DNA of 64,000 nucleotides from an uncultured Thermomicrobiales bacterium (GCA_902806415.1 CADCWN010000056.1:7875-71874), one strand, 5' to 3'; positions 16,057 to 45,018 are shown, counted from the stretch's first letter. The notes: generated from the sequence alone by a model not told the origin. A program made the numbers and translations.

Positions 16057-16146
16057 GGAGAGGTGGCCGAGCGGTTGAAGGCGGCGCTCTCGAAAAGCGT
16101 TAGGGGGTAACAGCCCTCGTGGGTTCGAATCCCACCCTCTCCGCCA
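16057..16146 (+). tRNA. tRNA-Ser (anticodon CGA)
   Basis: Acceptor GGAGAGG/CCTCTCC, anticodon loop CTCGAAA, long variable arm, GGTTCGAATCC, encoded CCA. Confidence 0.9.
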
Positions 16147-16289: not shown

Positions 16290-16381
16290 GGAAGGGTCGC
16301 ATAGTCTGGCCTAGTGCGCGCGACTGGAAATCGCGTAGGCGGTAAAACGCCTCGGGGGTTCGAATCCCCCCCCTTCCGCCA
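16290..16381 (+). tRNA. tRNA-Ser (anticodon GGA)
   Basis: Acceptor GGAAGGG/CCCTTCC, anticodon loop CTGGAAA, long variable arm, GGTTCGAATCC, encoded CCA. Confidence 0.85.
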
Positions 16382-16460: not shown

Positions 16461-16499
16461 GAAAAGAAGGGTGGGGGGCTATCCGCGCGATAGCCCCCC
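16461..16499 (-). terminator. intrinsic terminator of the selenoprotein gene pair
   Basis: On the minus strand, GGGGGGCTATC-gcgcg-GATAGCCCCCC is followed by acccttcttttc. It lies immediately after the 16510 stop. Confidence 0.7.
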
Positions 16500-16509
16500 G
16501 CGCCGTCCC

Positions 16510-16755
16510 TCAACTCACCGATGGCAAGAGTTTCCCCACTCGGGCAACAAGCGCATCCTGATCCGGGAACTCGCCGGTTCGCTTCTTCGAGTGGATCTCT
16601 CGGCCGGCGAGCCGGACCTCGAAGACGCCGCCCGAGCTCGGCACGAGACTGATGCGGGAGAACCGATTACTGTAGTCGTGCGCGATCTTCTCCGTCAAAC
16701 TGACGGCTTTCTTGAGGTAGCCTCAAGCGGTGCAGTACTCGACCTCGAACTCCAT
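16510..16755 (-). CDS. SelW/Rdx-family selenoprotein (CxxU), TGA 16723-16725 read as Sec
   Basis: ATG 16755 after GGAGAA. Translation MEFEVEYCTA-U-GYLKKAVSLTEKIAHDY...LVPSSGGVFEVRLAGREIHSKKRTGEFP. The CxxU plus GGVFEV signature is Rdx-like. The track keeps only the part after the TGA. Confidence 0.8.
16692..16706 (-). promoter_or_regulatory. candidate bacterial SECIS hairpin (SelW-like gene)
   Basis: CCGUCA-GUU-UGACGG, 16 nt after the UGA. Confidence 0.4.
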
Positions 16756-16827: not shown

Positions 16828-17247
16828 TTAAGCGGGCACGGCGGTGACGGTGAGCGCCACAGTGGTCGCCACGGCGACCGTACGGTAGAGCGGTCAACCG
16901 TCCTTGTAGCGCTGGACCACCGACTCGGCCTCTTCTTGGCTCGGTCCGACAAGGGTGAAGTGGAGATCGATCCGGGCGAAGCTGGTCGGATTGGCCCGTT
17001 CGCGCCGGCCCTCGATCGATACTTCCATCCGCTGGATTGGCACGCCCATCGTCTTGGCCGCCCCCTCGACCAGCGTCACGCCGCAGGAAGAGACGCCGGC
17101 CAGGAATGCCTCGCCTGACCCCAGCGCCTCGCCGATCGTCGGGCTGTCGATGACGAAATGCTGGTCGCGCGCGGTGTTCAGGCTCCGCCCCACGATGCCG
17201 CTGCTGTAGGACCGCACGGCGGTCACCACATAGTCTTGCTCGTCCAT
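16828..17247 (-). CDS. OsmC/YhfA-family protein with predicted selenocysteine (TGA 16894-16896)
   Basis: The track ORF stops at TGA, but the frame continues 21 codons to TAA 16828. The sequence ...VVQRYKDG-U-PLYRTVAVATTVALTVTAVPA places U at the second conserved Cys of the family. The first Cys is present in GVSSCGVTLVEG. Confidence 0.75.
16864..16879 (-). promoter_or_regulatory. candidate bacterial SECIS hairpin (OsmC-like gene)
   Basis: GGUCGC-CGUG-GCGACC, 14 nt after the UGA. Confidence 0.4.
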
Positions 17248-17393
17248 CGCCCCTCCTCGCTACGCCGCACTTCGAGCACCAGCATAGTGCCGGTAGCGCG
17301 ATAGTAGCACCGGCGCGCGGTTTGCGATACCCCGACGGCACGCTGACGACCGGCCCACGGTATCGCCCCGCGTCCGCAACCGCTAACCTGTTG

Positions 17394-17804
17394 TCAGCGC
17401 ACGATCAGCTTCGAGACCATTCCCGCCGCCTTATGGCCGGGATAATTGCAGACGATCTGATACTCGCCAGCGGGCAGCCCCTTCACGGTGTACGTATTGG
17501 TGGTATTCGCCCCGAAACTCGGGCTTTTGTAGCCCACGCCGTTCCCCTCGATCGAGAACTGGTGGCCGACCGGACTGGCATTCTTCACGATGAAGGTGAT
17601 GTCCCCGGCGGTCGCCTCGTAGCTCGGGCGATCCCAGCGCAAAGCGCCGCCCGGATCGGCGGCAACGGGGATCTGCTGCGCCGCGAGATCGCCACTGAAG
17701 TCGCCAGCACCACCGCTGGCACCGGTCGCCGCGCTGCACGCGGCCAGCACCGCGACGATCACCAAGAGTAGACTGCCAATCAAGCCGGTACGCCAGCGCT
17801 TCAT
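17394..17804 (-). CDS. type-1 copper cupredoxin lipoprotein (auracyanin/plastocyanin-like)
   Basis: Lipobox LAAC. Copper ligand pattern H (SPVGHQF) ... CNYPGHKAAGM. Confidence 0.8.
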   Translation of the reverse strand: MKRWRTGLIGSLLLVIVAVLAACSAATGASGGAGDFSGDLAAQQIPVAADPGGALRWDRPSYEATAGDITFIVKNASPVGHQFSIEGNGVGYKSPSFGANTTNTYTVKGLPAGEYQIVCNYPGHKAAGMVSKLIVR

Positions 17805-17868: not shown

Positions 17869-18249
17869 TCAGCGGGCGACCGTCGCGCGCCACGCCCGCC
17901 CGGCGATGATCGTCGCGACCCAGAAGATCAACATCCCGTTGACCGGGTGGAGCGCGGCGAGTGGGGTCCCCATGTTCGCCGTGATGTACTGCAAGGCGAT
18001 CAGCGCGAGGAGCAGCGCGGTGAGCCAGCGCACGGCCGCGGACAGCCGAGCGCTGAACGCCAGCGGCAGCATCAGCAAGGGCAGGAACTCGAAGACGTGG
18101 ATGAACGAACTATGCCAGGACCAGCGGGCCGCATCGACGAAGACGCCCATCCCCGCGAAGAAGACTTGCACCGCGACACAGGCGGCGAAGCCCAGCGCCA
18201 GCGCGAGGTAGATGCGGCGCGACCACACTACTCGCCTGCCGAGGGGCAT
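17869..18249 (-). CDS. small multi-TM membrane protein (DUF6220-like by recollection)
   Basis: Four hydrophobic segments. Start set at ATG 18249 after GGGAG. The track start at 18357 adds a Gly-rich extension. Confidence 0.55.
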   Translation of the reverse strand: MPLGRRVVWSRRIYLALALGFAACVAVQVFFAGMGVFVDAARWSWHSSFIHVFEFLPLLMLPLAFSARLSAAVRWLTALLLALIALQYITANMGTPLAALHPVNGMLIFWVATIIAGRAWRATVAR

Positions 18250-18575
18250 CGGTCCGCTCCCACTGCCCACCGCCCCGCCGCCATCATGCGCACCCACTTC
18301 CCCGGTACCGATCATCACGCCCACCTTGGGACGCGACCCGCCCAATTCGCGACTCATCCGCGACCTCCCCGCTGTCTCGACGCCGCCGCCGCATACCCCG
18401 GCGCTGCTCGGAGTGTAGGGAAGGGATGTCGCGACACCTTCGCGAAAGGTTCACGATTCGGTCAGCAACTTGTAACGATTCTGTTCCCGATGTCGGCGGG
18501 CTCCGGCAGGGCGTATACTCCCGAGATGATTGTCGGCAGATCGTCGCCGAGGTGGGCGACGGGAGGAGCAGGACG

Positions 18576-39780: not shown

Positions 39781-42700
39781 ATGGCGAATGAGCGACAAGG
39801 GGTGTGGGGGCGGGTGCGCGCGGGGCTGCGCGATTGGTCGGTCCCCCGGCAATTGCGCGGCGAGGACGCCCTCGGCGCGGCGGCGGAGTCGGCCGATTCG
39901 CGCCGGACGCGTCCGCGCCTGGAAGAGGCCGATCGGGTCGGCGCGAGTATCTGCCCCTACTGCGCCGTCGGCTGCGGCCAACTGATCTACGCGCGCGGCG
40001 ACGAGATCATCCACGTCGAGGGCGACCCGCGCAGCCCGATCAACCGGGGGACCCTCTGTCCGAAAGGGGCGGCGACCTTCGGCTGGCTCTCGAACCCGAA
40101 CCGCCTGACGACCGTGAAATACCGCGCGCCGGGTGCTGACCGCTGGGAGGAGCGGCCGCTCGACTGGGCGATGGAGCGGATCGCGCAACTGGTCAAGCGG
40201 ACGCGCGACGAGACGTTCGTCCGCCAACTGCCCGACGGCACGACCGTCAATCATACCCTGGCGATCGCCGAGCTGGGCGGCGCGACCCTCGACAACGAGG
40301 AGAATTACCTGCTCAAGAAGCTCTTGAGTGGCGGGCTGGGGATGGTCTTCATCGAGAATCAGGCCCGGATATGACACTCCTCCTCGGTGCCCGGTCTGGG
40401 TGCCACCTACGGGCGCGGGGCCGCAACGACGCCACAATGGGACCTCGCCAGGAGCGACTGCGTCGTGGTGATGGGCTCGAATATGGCCGAGAATCACCCG
40501 ATCGCCTTCCGCTTCGTCCTGGAAGCGAAGGAACGCAACGGCGCGACGATCATCCACGTCGATCCGCGCTTCACCCGCACCTCGGCGCTGGCCGATCTCT
40601 ACGCGCCGGTGCGCGCAGGCTCCGACATCGCGTTTCTCGGGGGCTTGATCAACTACATCCTCGAAAAGGATCTGTGGTTCAAGGAGTACGCGCTCGCCTA
40701 CACCAACATCGCGACAATTATTGAGGACGCCTTCCAGGGGGCCGAGGCGCTCGACGGCTTCTTCTCCGGCTGGGACGAGGACAAGCACATCTACGACGAG
40801 ACCTCCTGGCAGTATCGCGGGCAGATCGTCCCCTCCCCGATGGCGGAGCACTACTCGCGGCAGGGCCACCCCGAGCCCGATAAGGCGGAGGAATCGCTGA
40901 CCTCCGGCCCGCCCCCAACCGACCCGACGCTGCAACACCCGAACTGCGTCTACCAGATCATGCGGCGACATTACGCGCGCTACACGCCGGAGATGGTCGA
41001 GCGGGTCACCGGTTGCCCCCAGGCGACGTTCCTCCAGGTCGCCGAGGCGATCACCAGGAACTCCGGGCGCGAGCGGACCGGGGCGTGGTGCTACGCGGTC
41101 GGCTGGACCCACCACACGACCGGCGTGCAGATGATCCGCGCCTGCGCGATCATCCAGGCGCTGCTCGGCAATATCGGTCGGCCCGGCGGCGGCGTCCTCG
41201 CGCTGCGCGGCCACGCCTCGATCCAGGGCAGCACCGACATCCCCACCCTCTACCACCTGCTCCCCGGCTATCTGCCCCAGCCGAGCAGCACCCACCCGCA
41301 CGGCACCCTCGCGGACTATATGCGGGTCGAGTCCGCGCCGACCGGCCTCTGGCACAACTTCCCCAAATATATCGTCAGCCTCCTGCGCGCCTGGTACGGC
41401 GACGCGGCGGCGGAGGCAAATGAATGGGGCTACGGGTGGGTGCCGAAAATCACCGGCGATCATTCGCAGTTGCCGATGATGCTCGCCATCCGCGACGGCA
41501 CGATCAAGGGGCTGCTGCTGATGGGGCAGAACCCGGTTATCGGCGGGCACAACACCACCATGATCCGCGAGGCGCTGCCGAACCTCGAATGGCTGGTGAT
41601 CCGCGAGACGTTCGAGAACGAGACCGCCTCCTACTGGTACAAATCGCCGGAGGCGCTGCGCGGCGAGATTCGGCCCGAGGATAATCAGACCGAGATGTTC
41701 ATGCTCCCCGCCGCCTTGCCGGGCGAGAAGGAGGGGACATTCACCAACACCCACCGGCTGATCCAGTGGCACGATCAGGTGGTGGAACCGCGCGCCGATA
41801 TCCGCTCCGATCTCTGGTTCACCTATCATCTCGGCAAGCGCCTGAAGGAGTTGTACGCCGACAGCACCGACCCCAAAGACCTGCCGATCCAGAACCTCAC
41901 CTGGGAGTACCCGGAGCATGGCCGGATCGCCGAGCCCTCCGCTGAGGCGGTGCTGAGGGAGATCAACGGCTATAGCTGGCTGGGGCGCGAGCAGATCGCC
42001 TCCTTCGCCGACCTCAAGGATGACGGCTCCACCGCCTGCGGCTGCTGGATCTACAGCGGCGTCTTCCCGCGCGCCGACCTCAATCACGCGCGCTCGCGCC
42101 GGGGCGACGGGCCGGATGGTCCCGGCACGCACTTGAACTGGGCGTTCGCCTGGCCCGCGAACCGGCGACTGATCTACAACCGCGCCGCCGCCGATCCCGA
42201 GGGCAAACCGTGGAGCGAGCGCAAGCGCTATACGTGGTGGAATGCCGAGAAGGGCGAGTGGGATTGCCTCGACGCGCTCGACTTCGAGCCGCAGAAGGCC
42301 CCGGATTACGTGCCGGACTGGTCAACTCGCCCGCACGGCATGGACGCGCTCGACGGCAAGTCGCCATTCACCTTCATGGCCGACGGCAAAGGCCAACTCT
42401 TCTCGCCGAGCGGCTTGAAGGATGGTCCCCTCCCGACTCATTACGAGCCGGTCGAGTCGCCGGTGCGGAACCCGCTCTACGGCCAGCAGGACAACCCCGC
42501 CACCAAGAAGTGGGAGAGCGCGGACAATCGCTATCACACGGTCGGCGACCCGCGCTTCCCCTACGTCCTGACGACCTACCGCCTGACGGAGCACCATTCC
42601 GGCGGGATCCCGACACGCCTCGTCCCATCCACCGCCGAGTTGCAGCCGGAGGGGTTCGTGGAGATCCCGCCCGAACTGGCGCGCGAGAAGGGGATCGCCA

Positions 42701-43008
42701 ACCTCGACTGGGCGACTATCTCCACCGCGCGCGGCGCGATCGAGATGAAGGTGCTGGTCACCGAACGGCTGCGCCCGTTCGCGATCGACGGCCAGCAGGT
42801 CTACCAGATCGGGATGCCCTGGCATTTCGGCTGGGAGGGCTATGCCACCGGCGACATCGCCAACGCCCTCACGGCGGTTGTCGCCGACCCGAACTCCTCG
42901 ATCCACGAGGGGAAAGCGTTCACCTGCGATCTGCGGAAAGGTCGGCTGCGTCGCGGCGACAGCGAAGCGTCCGGCGACCGGGACGCCGTCGCGTCGCCGG
43001 AGGGATGA
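39781..43008 (+). CDS. fdhA: formate dehydrogenase alpha subunit (Mo/W-bisPGD), selenocysteine at TGA 40372-40374
   Basis: Two track ORFs in one frame are joined by TGA, giving ...ENQARI-U-HSSSVPGLGATYGRGAATT, the canonical FDH Sec site. An N-terminal CPYCAVGCG FeS motif is present. Confidence 0.9.
40386..40404 (+). promoter_or_regulatory. candidate SECIS hairpin (fdhA)
   Basis: GGUGCCC-GGUCU-GGGUGCC, 11 nt after the UGA. The GGUCU loop is like the E. coli fdhF SECIS apex (recalled). Confidence 0.55.
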
Positions 43009-43944: not shown

Positions 43945-45018
43945 ATGAGCGAGCCGACCGAGCGCTCCCCCTACGGTCGCCGGAAGCGGCGCGGCGGCGA
44001 CGACGCCACGAACGCCGACAGCCCGCGCGGCTCGCGCCTGTACCGGGGCGAGACCTATTACGGGCGGCCGGCGATCAAGCCCAGCCACTGGGGTTGGCTG
44101 ATCGCGGGGTACTATTTCGTCGGGGGGCTCGCGGGGGGCGCGCAGGTCGTCGCCGCCGTCGCCGATCTGATCGCGCCGGGGCGCGATCGGACGATCGTGC
44201 GTGCGGGGCGTTACCTCTCCCTGGCCGGGTTGCTCGCCAGCCCGCCGCTGCTGATCGCCGACCTCCAGACCCCGGCACGCTTCTACAATATGCTGCGGAT
44301 CATCCGCCCCACCTCGCCGATGTCGATCGGCTCCTGGATCCTCACGGTCTTCGGCCTGTTCACCAGCCTGACCGCGCTGGCCCAGGGGATCGAAGACCTC
44401 ACCGGCTCCGCGACGGCGCGGCGGGTCGCCCGCTGGTCGGGTCTCCCCGCCGCCGCCAGCGGGATGCTGATGGCCACCTACACCGGCGCGCTCTCGACCG
44501 CGACGAGCGTCCCCCTCTGGGCAGCGGTGCCACGCGCCCTGCCGACCCTCTTCGGGCTCGCCTCCACCGCCTCCTCCCTCGCCGCCATCGCGCTCGTCGC
44601 GGAGGCCGCCGAGGCGAACGAGGAGACCCACTGGCGGATCGAGCGCCTGTCGCTGCTCGTCGGGCTAGGGGAGCTCGCGGCGCACGCGGCTATCCTGCGA
44701 GCGTGGCATATGCGCGGGGTGGCGGGGCCGCTGGAATCGCCCGCTCTGAGCGCGCTCCACAAGTTCGGGATGGTCGGCCTGGGGGCGATCGTGCCGACGG
44801 CGATCCACGCGGCGCAGCAACTCACCGGGCGGCGCACCCGCGCGGGGACGATCGGGGCAGCGACGGCGACCCTCGCCGGGATTTTCATCGAGCGCGTCGT
44901 GATCGTCTTCGCCGGCAATGAGTCGGCCCGACGCCCGACCGACTATCTGCGCTTCACGCAACCGCGAGGGGGGGCGACGATCCAATGCGCGAGCAAGGGT
45001 AACGATGAGTCGGCATGA
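43945..45018 (+). CDS. NrfD/PsrC-type integral membrane subunit
   Basis: 357 aa with 8-10 TMs. WGWLIAGYYFVGGLAGGAQ motif. RBS AGGAGG. Confidence 0.8.
   Translation: MSEPTERSPYGRRKRRGGDDATNADSPRGSRLYRGETYYGRPAIKPSHWGWLIAGYYFVGGLAGGAQVVAAVADLIAPGRDRTIVRAGRYLSLAGLLASPPLLIADLQTPARFYNMLRIIRPTSPMSIGSWILTVFGLFTSLTALAQGIEDLTGSATARRVARWSGLPAAASGMLMATYTGALSTATSVPLWAAVPRALPTLFGLASTASSLAAIALVAEAAEANEETHWRIERLSLLVGLGELAAHAAILRAWHMRGVAGPLESPALSALHKFGMVGLGAIVPTAIHAAQQLTGRRTRAGTIGAATATLAGIFIERVVIVFAGNESARRPTDYLRFTQPRGGATIQCASKGNDESA

What the first reader, a model, noticed from the sequence alone, without database searches (positions are those of the whole stretch)
16828..17247. OsmC/YhfA-family gene truncated by ORF calling at a probable Sec codon
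The ORF track ends at TGA 16894-16896 (...VVQRYKDG*). The same frame runs 21 further codons to TAA 16828-16830 (U-PLYRTVAVATTVALTVTAVPA).

In YhfA/OsmC-type proteins the C-terminal block is ...YC[SP]V...(beta strands). From memory, E. coli YhfA reads AEKYCSVALMLEKAVNITHSYEV. The TGA aligns with that conserved Cys, and the extension restores the missing strands. The first conserved Cys is intact (GVSSCGVTLVEG). The hairpin GGUCGC-CGUG-GCGACC starts 14 nt after the UGA.

I recall OsmC-like selenoproteins being listed in metagenomic selenoproteome surveys. That recollection should be verified.
Basis: partly seen in the sequence, partly recalled or inferred. Interest (0 to 1): 0.7.

Follow-up and report, generated by a model that had tools for sequence, protein, structure and literature searches.

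The report
OsmC-family selenoprotein with second-Cys Sec
The 117-codon OsmC-like gene is really a 139-residue selenoprotein: its TGA codes for selenocysteine at the second active-site cysteine, which is the opposite position from the OsmC-like selenoproteins already catalogued, and gene callers cut this whole soil-bacterial family short.

Summary
The ORF at 17247..16894 (-) stops at a TGA, and the same frame runs 21 more codons to a TAA. Reading through raises OsmC profile coverage from 4-81 to 4-98 of 100. All 13 full-length homologs have Cys at the TGA column. Of 65 related genome loci, 62 carry the same in-frame TGA followed by conserved PLYRTVA.AT. A 6-7 bp hairpin starts 14 nt after the UGA and meets every published bacterial SECIS criterion. 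It is paired in 99.3% of cells across 62 genes and shows compensatory changes. In Cys-form genes that encode almost the same peptide, the hairpin has decayed. The window also holds a CxxU SelW-like gene and a canonical Sec formate dehydrogenase, so this organism decodes Sec. OsmC-like selenoproteins are known (Sargasso Sea 2005). Those carry Sec at the first Cys (UxxT) and match NCBIfam NF041052 at 157 bits. This family keeps Cys there, puts Sec at the second (resolving-type) Cys, and scores only 22-31 bits. I found no report of this form. It is a new variant of a known kind and is routinely mis-annotated as about 116 aa.

The parts
16828..17247 (-). Full coding sequence of the OsmC-family selenoprotein: 139 residues with Sec at 118, stop TAA at 16830-16828.
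   Evidence: Translation. Pfam OsmC 49.1 bits over profile 4-98/100 when read through. Full-length Cys homologs align end to end.
16894..16896 (-). In-frame TGA, read as the selenocysteine codon (residue 118). It sits at the position of the second, resolving-type Cys of OsmC/Ohr.
   Evidence: Cys in 13 of 13 full-length homologs. TGA at this column in 62 of 65 genome loci and in 3 divergent metagenome loci. It aligns with the CP.. Cys of 1lql and Ohr 6mjn.
16864..16879 (-). SECIS hairpin GGUCGC-CGUG-GCGACC. The stem is 6 bp (7 bp if the covarying C16873/G16870 pair is counted). The loop carries G-U. The hairpin starts 14 nt after the UGA.
   Evidence: 99.3% of cells paired over 60 distinct sequences; compensatory changes at 4 pairs; 0 of 500 shuffles reach the observed score. 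RNAalifold predicts the same stem. The stem is broken in 6 of 7 Cys-form genes. It meets the bSECIS criteria of PMC13188914.
17083..17085 (-). TGC codon for Cys55, the first active-site Cys (GVSSCGVTL). It is invariant in the family.
   Evidence: Invariant column C55. It aligns with the first Cys of 1lql and Ohr 6mjn and with the Sec of the published Sargasso OsmC-like selenoprotein.
17252..17257 (-). Shine-Dalgarno-like AGGAGG, 4 nt upstream of the ATG.
   Evidence: Read directly from the sequence.
16510..16755 (-). Downstream SelW/Rdx-like gene with a CxxU motif (TGA at 16725-16723), 72 nt after the OsmC stop. It is probably co-transcribed. Its own hairpin CCGUCA-GUU-UGACGG lies at 16706-16692.
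   Evidence: PF10262 72.2 bits. TIGR02174 68.8 bits against a cutoff of 34.2. Fold. No terminator-like site lies between the two genes.
16473..16499 (-). Terminator-like 11-bp GC-rich hairpin with a T-rich tail, directly after the SelW-like stop. It is the likely end of a two-gene selenoprotein transcript.
   Evidence: Consensus scan. This is a pattern match only.

Best explanation
The gene encodes a 139-residue OsmC/Ohr-fold protein. UGA codon 118 is recoded to selenocysteine by SelB and Sec-tRNA, directed by a short hairpin inside the coding sequence 14 nt downstream. This part is shown by comparative sequence evidence. The Sec-led C-terminal segment (a helix plus the last beta-strand) completes the fold. 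It places Sec118 in the active site next to the invariant Cys55. This is inferred from alignment to solved OsmC/Ohr structures and from an AlphaFold model of a 72%-identical Cys homolog. The most likely function is a thiol/selenol-dependent hydroperoxide reductase that cycles through an intramolecular Cys55-Sec118 selenenylsulfide. That bond would then be reduced by a cellular dithiol, for example a lipoylated protein or thioredoxin. This is inferred from the known mechanism of Ohr/OsmC. In Ohr/OsmC the first Cys is peroxidatic and the second is resolving, so here Sec occupies the resolving position. Two readings remain open, and I cannot separate them. Sec may speed up resolution and protect Cys55 from over-oxidation, or the roles may have swapped so that Sec is the peroxide-attacking residue. 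The gene is probably co-transcribed with a CxxU SelW-like selenoprotein.
For: - **OsmC profile:** coverage and score rise on readthrough, from 34.7 to 49.1 bits and from 4-81 to 4-98 of 100.
- **Sec/Cys pairing:** 13 of 13 full-length homologs have Cys at the TGA column, with a conserved extension (RYKDN-C-PLYGTVADATTV).
- **Recurrence:** 62 of 65 genome loci from Thermomicrobiales, Rokubacteria/Methylomirabilota, Nitrolancea, Binatia and others have TGA there, followed by PLYRTVA.AT and a stop 15-25 codons later. Three relatives at 33-40% identity show the same TGA and an identical hairpin.
- **Hairpin conservation:** synonymous positions inside the hairpin arms are fixed, while those outside vary. 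The helix is 99.3% paired. Pair 21/36 changes GC to AU, pairs 22/35 and 23/34 swap, and pair 27/30 reads GC 34, AU 14, CG 8. RNAalifold agrees.
- **Cys-form control:** Cys-form genes encode TVADAT but break 1-3 of the 7 pairs in 6 of 7 cases. Their local MFE is -4 to -9 kcal/mol, against a mean of -12.6 for the Sec forms.
- **bSECIS criteria** (PMC13188914): all are met. The loop is 4 nt, the stem 6 bp, G is at loop position 2, the apical loop is 20 nt from the UGA, and the MFE is -10.6 kcal/mol.
- **Sec decoding in this organism:** the window's FDH alpha subunit has its TGA on the Sec of D. vulgaris FdhA (E about 1e-80). There is also a CxxU SelW-like gene. TGA is the ordinary stop of most genes in the window.
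- **Fold:** the AF2 model has pLDDT 80.4, and residues beyond the Sec position form helix 118-126 and strand 128-136. Foldseek hits OsmC/Ohr structures over the full length.
- **Active-site mapping:** both active-site positions align with the two Cys of 1lql and Ohr 6mjn.
Against: - There is no direct evidence of selenium incorporation.
- No selA, selB, selD or tRNA-Sec lies in the 64 kb.
- Single-sequence folding of the window's own RNA is not better than shuffles, and the 60-nt MFE prefers a different pairing.
- If the covarying 27/30 pair forms, it leaves a sterically awkward 2-nt loop.
I could not measure the Cys-Sec distance.
- Peroxidase activity and the identity of the reductant are inferred from distant relatives (14-21% identity).
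- The catalytic Arg/Glu equivalents (R21, E46) are conserved, but E46 aligns one residue off the Ohr Glu.
- No conserved neighbouring gene points to a pathway.
Confidence: 0.9

Rival explanations
1. The TGA is a genuine stop. The organism makes a 117-residue truncated OsmC-like protein, and the downstream conservation reflects a non-coding RNA element such as a terminator or regulatory hairpin.
For: Gene callers and GenBank annotate about 116 aa for nearly all homologs. Some termination at UGA is expected alongside Sec insertion.
Against: The downstream 15-25 codons are conserved at the amino-acid level with 3-base periodicity, and they match the C-terminus of the Cys homologs. The truncated form lacks the second catalytic residue, a helix and the last strand of the fold. 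The hairpin has no T-run and is not called as a terminator. The hairpin decays exactly where TGA is replaced by TGC.
Confidence: 0.03
2. The UGA is read through with a standard amino acid (Trp, Cys or Gly), either by near-cognate decoding or by a reassigned code, not with selenocysteine.
For: Without proteomics the inserted residue is not observed directly. No Sec machinery gene lies in the window.
Against: TGA terminates most genes in the window, so the code is not reassigned. The hairpin meets the bSECIS model and is maintained only in the TGA forms. The position is a redox Cys in homologs, which is the signature of Sec/Cys pairs. A canonical Sec-FDH and a CxxU SelW-like gene lie in the same window.
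Confidence: 0.04
3. The gene is a pseudogene or carries a sequencing or assembly error at codon 118.
For: Two of the 65 related loci do look degenerate: L060 stops two codons after the TGA, and L064 is frameshifted.
Against: The same TGA recurs in 62 independent assemblies across several phyla and in 3 divergent metagenome contigs. Both flanks are under purifying selection.
Confidence: 0.01
4. It is a selenoprotein but not a peroxidase. The Cys55/Sec118 pair would serve another redox or sulfur/selenium-transfer reaction, possibly together with the adjacent SelW-like protein.
For: The subfamilies closest in fold (AQ1549, MPN625, Ta0195, YhfA) are mostly uncharacterised. Sec sits at the non-peroxidatic position. 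In this window the gene is adjacent to a SelW-like thiol oxidoreductase.
Against: R21 and E46, the conserved equivalents of the Ohr active-site residues, are retained. The SelW-like neighbour is absent from all 65 related loci, so no obligatory partnership exists.
Confidence: 0.25

Closest known systems
OsmC-like selenoprotein of the Sargasso Sea and GOS surveys (motif UxxT; NCBIfam NF041052 'OsmC-related (seleno)protein'; Zhang, Fomenko & Gladyshev 2005, PMC1088965)
   Same: OsmC/PF02566 fold. There is one in-frame UGA paired with Cys in homologs, and a coding-region bacterial SECIS. The second redox residue is kept as Cys.
   Different: Sec is at the first Cys there (GIGF-U-LLT), with Cys at the second (KQG-C-FAENL). 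The window protein is the exact reverse. Sequence identity is 19%. The Sargasso protein scores 157 bits on NF041052, while the window family scores 22-31 bits against a cutoff of 95. The published forms come from marine plankton; this family is found in soil and groundwater Chloroflexota and Rokubacteria.
Ohr / OsmC two-Cys hydroperoxide reductases (e.g. PDB 6mjn, 1zb9, 1qwi)
   Same: Same fold (TM 0.62-0.74). The two active-site positions align. An Arg in a Gly-rich N-terminal loop and a Glu before the first Cys are conserved.
   Different: Only 12-21% identity, with scores far below the Ohr model cutoffs. The second (resolving) Cys is Sec. The reductant and substrates are unknown.
Uncharacterised OsmC subfamily structures AQ1549 (2egt), MPN625 (1lql), Ta0195 (2onf), E. 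coli YhfA (1ml8)
   Same: These are the best structural matches over the full length (TM 0.77-0.79). Size is similar. 1lql keeps both Cys.
   Different: 14-19% identity. The YhfA equivalog model NF008009 scores 16 bits against a cutoff of 138. None of these is a selenoprotein.
CxxU selenoproteins (SelW-like, AhpD-like)
   Same: They are a precedent for Sec at the second position of a two-residue redox pair that forms a selenenylsulfide. One such gene lies directly downstream.
   Different: The folds are unrelated. In those proteins the two residues are 3 apart in sequence, not 63 apart.

Membership tests
Bacterial selenoprotein gene (Sec-UGA plus bSECIS) | In-frame UGA aligned with Cys in homologs (a Sec/Cys pair). 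| tested here: met
   13 of 13 full-length homologs have Cys at the column. L010 and L065 have TGC there.
Bacterial selenoprotein gene (Sec-UGA plus bSECIS) | [quoted passage not shown] | tested here: met
   62 of 65 genome loci plus 3 divergent contigs carry TGA followed by PLY[RG][TS]VA.AT.
Bacterial selenoprotein gene (Sec-UGA plus bSECIS) | bSECIS as defined in PMC13188914: 3-9 nt apical loop, 4-16 bp stem, G in the first two loop positions, 16-37 nt from UGA to the loop, MFE at most -7.5 kcal/mol. | tested here: met
   Loop CGUG (4 nt), 6-bp stem, G at loop position 2, 20 nt spacing, MFE -10.6 kcal/mol. Covariation supports the stem. The stem is lost in the Cys forms.
Bacterial selenoprotein gene (Sec-UGA plus bSECIS) | The genome encodes SelA, SelB, SelD and tRNA-Sec. 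| not testable with these tools
   None lies in the 64 kb. Indirect support comes from a canonical Sec-FDH and a CxxU SelW-like gene in the window.
Bacterial selenoprotein gene (Sec-UGA plus bSECIS) | Selenium demonstrated in the protein. | not testable with these tools
   This needs 75Se labelling or mass spectrometry.
OsmC/Ohr superfamily (Pfam PF02566) | Profile match above the gathering score. | tested here: met
   49.1 bits against a cutoff of 27.5, covering profile 4-98/100.
OsmC/Ohr superfamily (Pfam PF02566) | OsmC fold with two redox residues at the conserved positions. | tested here: met
   The AF2 model of homolog P0005 has pLDDT 80.4. Foldseek TM is 0.62-0.79 to OsmC/Ohr structures. 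Cys55 and the TGA align with the two Cys of 1lql and 6mjn.
OsmC/Ohr superfamily (Pfam PF02566) | Catalytic Arg and Glu supporting the peroxidatic Cys; peroxidase activity. | tested here: inconclusive
   R21 is invariant and E46 nearly invariant, but E46 aligns one residue off the Ohr Glu. Activity was not tested.
Published OsmC-like selenoprotein (UxxT; NCBIfam NF041052) | Sec at the first active-site Cys (motif UxxT). | tested here: not met
   The published U aligns with the window's Cys55, and the published second Cys aligns with the window's TGA.
Published OsmC-like selenoprotein (UxxT; NCBIfam NF041052) | Score at or above the curated cutoff (95 bits). | tested here: not met
   The window protein scores 26.3 bits and three family members score 22.7-31.1 bits. 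The Sargasso sequence scores 157.4 bits.
E. coli YhfA equivalog (NCBIfam NF008009) | Score at or above the curated cutoff (138 bits). | tested here: not met
   16.1 bits. The match to 1ml8 is at the fold level only.

The most novel reading that the evidence does not exclude
This is an uncatalogued selenoprotein family. It is an OsmC-fold subfamily, abundant in soil and groundwater Chloroflexota (Thermomicrobiales, Nitrolancea), Rokubacteria/Methylomirabilota and others. Sec occupies the position of the resolving Cys, not the peroxidatic Cys. The Sec form is the rule, at roughly 85-90% of members, and Cys forms are the exception. The SECIS is conserved almost base for base down to 33% protein identity, which also fixes the peptide VAVAT. 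If Sec really acts as the resolving residue, or if the catalytic roles have swapped, this would be a natural experiment on why selenium is used at one position of a two-residue peroxidase and not the other.
Probability: 0.6. Interest if true: 0.6.

Novelty: new variant of a known kind. Interest (0 to 1): 0.55.

Why it matters
**Annotation.** Hundreds of database entries in this family are called about 116 aa and named 'OsmC family protein' (for example P0085, P0091 and P0101). They lack a catalytic residue and the end of the fold. The curated NCBI selenoprotein model does not rescue them. A dedicated model would correct the selenoproteomes of Thermomicrobiales and Rokubacteria.

**Biochemistry.** Two OsmC-fold selenoprotein families now place Sec at opposite members of the same catalytic pair. 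That allows a clean comparison of what selenium contributes at the peroxidatic position versus the resolving position.

**RNA.** The SECIS is short and nearly invariant, and it is embedded in codons for VAVAT. It is a compact example of an RNA signal constraining protein sequence, and it makes a convenient search motif.

Tried and rejected
- **Rfam at gathering thresholds:** only three tRNAs were found, and nothing over the SECIS.
- **Single-sequence folding of the window RNA:** z-scores of -0.12 to -1.09 are not significant, and the 60-65 nt MFE prefers a different pairing that involves the UGA. I therefore relied on comparative evidence.
- **Lower-stem extension (columns 18-20 with 40-42):** only 82% paired and no compensatory change, so it is not supported.
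- **Structure prediction of the window protein with U replaced by C:** I modelled the natural Cys homolog P0005 instead.
- **Synteny of the SelW-like neighbour:** it is absent from all 65 related loci.
- **Conserved neighbours of the OsmC-Sec gene:** none is general. There is only clade-specific synteny in Rokubacteria, and the top 'cluster' was an antisense-ORF artefact.
- **Sec machinery in the window:** not found.
- **Terminator reading of the hairpin:** rejected, because there is no T-run and no call.
- **Literature searches for a second-Cys Sec OsmC form:** nothing was found. All mentions trace back to the UxxT form.

Full report
**1. The observation.** On the minus strand an ORF starts at ATG 17247, preceded by AGGAGG. 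It reaches TGA at 16896-16894 after 117 codons (...VVQRYKDG*). The same frame continues with PLYRTVAVATTVALTVTAVPA to TAA 16830-16828. The hairpin GGUCGC-CGUG-GCGACC occupies 16879-16864, after a 14-nt spacer. A 21-codon open stretch in 69% GC DNA, and a GC-rich hairpin, are not remarkable on their own. Single-sequence fold z-scores run from -0.12 to -1.09. The case therefore rests on comparison with other sequences.

**2. The extension is coding, and the TGA is a Sec/Cys position.** With Cys substituted at the TGA, the product matches Pfam OsmC over profile positions 4-98 of 100 (49.1 bits). The truncated ORF covers only 4-81 (34.7 bits). A search of 5.8 billion proteins gave 225 relatives. 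Most of the closest ones are called at 115-117 aa, but 13 are 137-151 aa long. In every one of those 13 a Cys sits at the TGA column, followed by a conserved C-terminus (RYKDN-C-PLYGTVADATTV...; alignment A1).

I then fetched DNA for 65 related loci from the species-representative genome set. Of these, 62 have an in-frame TGA at this exact codon. It is followed by PLYRTVA[VAGD]AT..V.V and a true stop 15-25 codons later. The loci come from Thermomicrobiales, Nitrolancea, Sphaerobacteraceae, Rokubacteria/Methylomirabilota, Binatia and a few other MAGs. Two loci (L010, L065) have TGC. L060 and L064 look degenerate.

In a library clustered at 50% identity, most representatives that reach the query's C-terminus also stop within 0-3 residues of this column. 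Three of them, at 33-40% identity, proved to have TGA plus the same extension. The '116-aa' homologs are therefore not evidence for a real stop. They are the same miscall repeated.

**3. The SECIS.** In an ungapped alignment of 62 Sec-form genes (A3), the sequence reads TGA CCN CTC TAY CGN ACG GTC GCN GNN GCG ACC. Synonymous positions outside the hairpin (CCN, TAY, CGN) vary freely. Those inside the arms (ACG, GTC, GCG, ACC) are fixed or change only in pairs.

- Counting pairs for columns 21-27 against 30-36 gives 99.3% paired cells.
- Compensatory changes occur at four pairs. Pair 21/36 changes GC to AU in Nitrolancea. Pairs 22/35 and 23/34 are swapped in L030, which turns TVAVAT into ATAVAV. 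Pair 27/30 reads GC 34, AU 14, CG 8.
- 0 of 500 shuffles reach the observed covariation score, and slid registers collapse to 16-53% paired.
- RNAalifold independently predicts the 6-bp stem.
- A proposed lower stem is not supported.

The decisive control is the Cys forms. Seven Cys-form genes encode nearly the same peptide (TVADAT), yet their wobble positions drift. One to three of the seven pairs are broken in six of the seven genes. Their local MFE is -4 to -9 kcal/mol, against a mean of -12.6 for 61 Sec forms. The hairpin is therefore maintained as RNA, and only where the codon is TGA.

The hairpin meets each criterion of the published bacterial SECIS model (PMC13188914):

| Criterion | Published range | This hairpin |
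|---|---|---|
| Apical loop | 3-9 nt | 4 nt |
| Upper stem | 4-16 bp | 6 bp |
| G in first two loop positions | required | G at position 2 |
| UGA to apical loop | 16-37 nt | 20 nt |
| MFE | at most -7.5 kcal/mol | -10.6 kcal/mol |

The published consensus also mentions a base-paired N1/N2 flanking the loop G, which matches the covarying 27/30 pair. Here, though, only two nucleotides lie between N1 and N2. I cannot explain that detail.

**4. This organism decodes Sec.** The 64 kb contains no selA, selB, selD or tRNA-Sec. It does contain two more in-frame-TGA genes.

- *SelW/Rdx-like gene.* It lies directly downstream (16755-16510, minus strand) and has a CxxU motif. It scores 72 bits on PF10262 and 68.8 bits on TIGR02174, whose cutoff is 34.2. 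Its own hairpin, CCGUCA-GUU-UGACGG, starts 16 nt after the UGA.
- *Formate dehydrogenase alpha subunit.* At 39781-43008 (+) it is split by TGA 40372-40374 in the motif ENQARI-U-HSSSVP. The TGA aligns on the Sec of Desulfovibrio vulgaris FdhA (8cm4) at E about 1e-80. An E. coli-like SECIS follows: 11-nt spacer, 7-bp stem, loop GGUCU.

All three hairpins place a loop G-U 23-27 nt from the U of UGA. TGA is the normal stop of most genes in the window, so the code is not reassigned.

**5. What the protein is.** An AlphaFold model of the closest natural Cys form (P0005, 72% identical, 49-sequence alignment) has pLDDT 80.4. The residues beyond the Sec position form a helix (118-126) and the last beta-strand (128-136). 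The truncated call would lack both. Foldseek matches OsmC/Ohr structures over the full length. The best are AQ1549, MPN625, Ohr 6mjn, Ta0195 and YhfA, at TM 0.74-0.79.

Sequence alignments to 1lql and Ohr 6mjn put Cys55 on the first catalytic Cys and the TGA on the second one, the 'CP..' Cys. In Ohr/OsmC the first Cys is peroxidatic and the second is resolving; this is established knowledge of those enzymes. R21 and E46, the likely equivalents of the Ohr Arg and Glu, are invariant or nearly so.

I therefore propose a hydroperoxide reductase that cycles through a Cys55-Sec118 selenenylsulfide. Whether Sec is the resolving residue or has taken over the peroxidatic role is open. No conserved neighbour constrains the function. 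In this window the gene is probably co-transcribed with the SelW-like gene. The gap between them is 72 nt, no terminator lies in it, and a strong terminator-like hairpin follows at 16499-16473. That neighbour is absent from the 65 related loci.

**6. Comparison with what is known.** OsmC-like selenoproteins were first reported from the Sargasso Sea (3 sequences, COG1765, motif UxxT; PMC1088965) and again from GOS (PMC2398784). They are listed once, as UxxT, in a 2026 review (PMC13188914).

The deposited Sargasso sequence reads ...GIGF-U-LLT...KQG-C-FAENL.... Aligned with the window protein, its Sec falls on Cys55 and its second Cys falls on the window's TGA. The arrangement is the exact reverse.

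NCBIfam's 'OsmC-related (seleno)protein' model NF041052 recognises the Sargasso protein at 157 bits. The window protein and three family members score only 22-31 bits against a cutoff of 95. So the window gene works like an OsmC-like selenoprotein but is not a member of the catalogued family. Five literature queries found no description of a second-Cys Sec form. Subscription-only papers are not searchable here, so prior description cannot be excluded.

**7. Verdict.** The gene is a selenoprotein with confidence about 0.9, lacking only direct selenium evidence and the Sec machinery genes. It is a new variant of a known kind: an OsmC-fold selenoprotein family with Sec at the resolving-Cys position. 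The family is dominated by Sec forms, is widespread in soil and groundwater lineages, carries a nearly invariant coding-region SECIS, and is systematically mis-annotated as truncated.

Noticed in passing
window 16510-16755 (-), TGA at 16723-16725: A SelW/Rdx-like gene with CxxU (MEFEVEYCTA-U-GYLKK...) lies 72 nt downstream of the OsmC-Sec gene on the same strand. The ORF lister splits it at the TGA. A hairpin CCGUCA-GUU-UGACGG (16706-16692) starts 16 nt after the UGA. The gene is not syntenic with OsmC-Sec in 65 related loci.
   Followed up: partly
window 39781-43008 (+), TGA at 40372-40374; NrfD-like gene at 43945-45018: A formate dehydrogenase alpha subunit is split into two ORFs (197 aa and 873 aa) by a Sec-TGA in the motif ENQARI-U-HSSSVP. 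The TGA aligns on the Sec of D. vulgaris FdhA. An E. coli-like SECIS follows (11-nt spacer, 7-bp stem, loop GGUCU). An NrfD-type membrane subunit lies downstream.
   Followed up: partly
window 16870 and 16873 (-); alignment A3 columns 27 and 30: The two nucleotides flanking the loop G-N covary as a Watson-Crick pair (GC 34, AU 14, CG 8, non-pair 3). If that pair forms, the loop is only 2 nt, which is sterically awkward. It may reflect a SelB-bound conformation. The published consensus has N1-G-[G/U]-N-N2, with one more loop base.
   Followed up: partly
window 16864-16881 (-); peptide TVAVAT, residues 123-128: The conserved peptide V-A-V-A-T is encoded by GUC GCN GUN GCG ACC, which is itself the hairpin. 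The SECIS appears to constrain the protein sequence. Sec forms read VA[VAGD]AT with fixed wobble bases. In L030 a double compensatory change rewrites the peptide to ATAVAV.
   Followed up: partly
L060 3346-3360; L064 3001-3397: Two Rokubacteria loci look like decayed copies. L060 has TGA CCC CTG TAA and then unrelated sequence. L064 loses the frame before the Sec codon.
   Followed up: no
P0077 (137 aa), compared with L012, L020 and L024: A Cys-form protein (YKAR-C-PLYRTAAVATAV) is most similar to the Sec-form Rokubacteria clade, not to the main Cys-form cluster (YKDN-C). This suggests more than one independent Sec/Cys conversion.
   Followed up: no
P0142 (714 aa, 4 matched stretches), P0219 (2912 aa, 6 stretches), P0200, P0235, P0257 and P0258: Some distant relatives are long proteins with several tandem OsmC-like domains. 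They were not examined.
   Followed up: no
window 16057-16146 and 16290-16381 (+): Two tRNA-Ser genes (anticodons CGA and GGA) lie just beyond the terminator of the selenoprotein pair, on the opposite strand. Neither is tRNA-Sec.
   Followed up: yes
window 17394-17804 (-) and 17869-18357 (-): Upstream on the same strand lie a small secreted cupredoxin-like protein and a DUF6220 membrane protein. The 146-nt gap before the OsmC-Sec start suggests a separate transcript.
   Followed up: no
L068-L070 and the P0016 contig: In the Cys-form clade the OsmC gene is preceded by a ydhR-family (PF08803) gene in 3 of 4 contigs with context. That neighbour was not seen next to the Sec forms.
   Followed up: no
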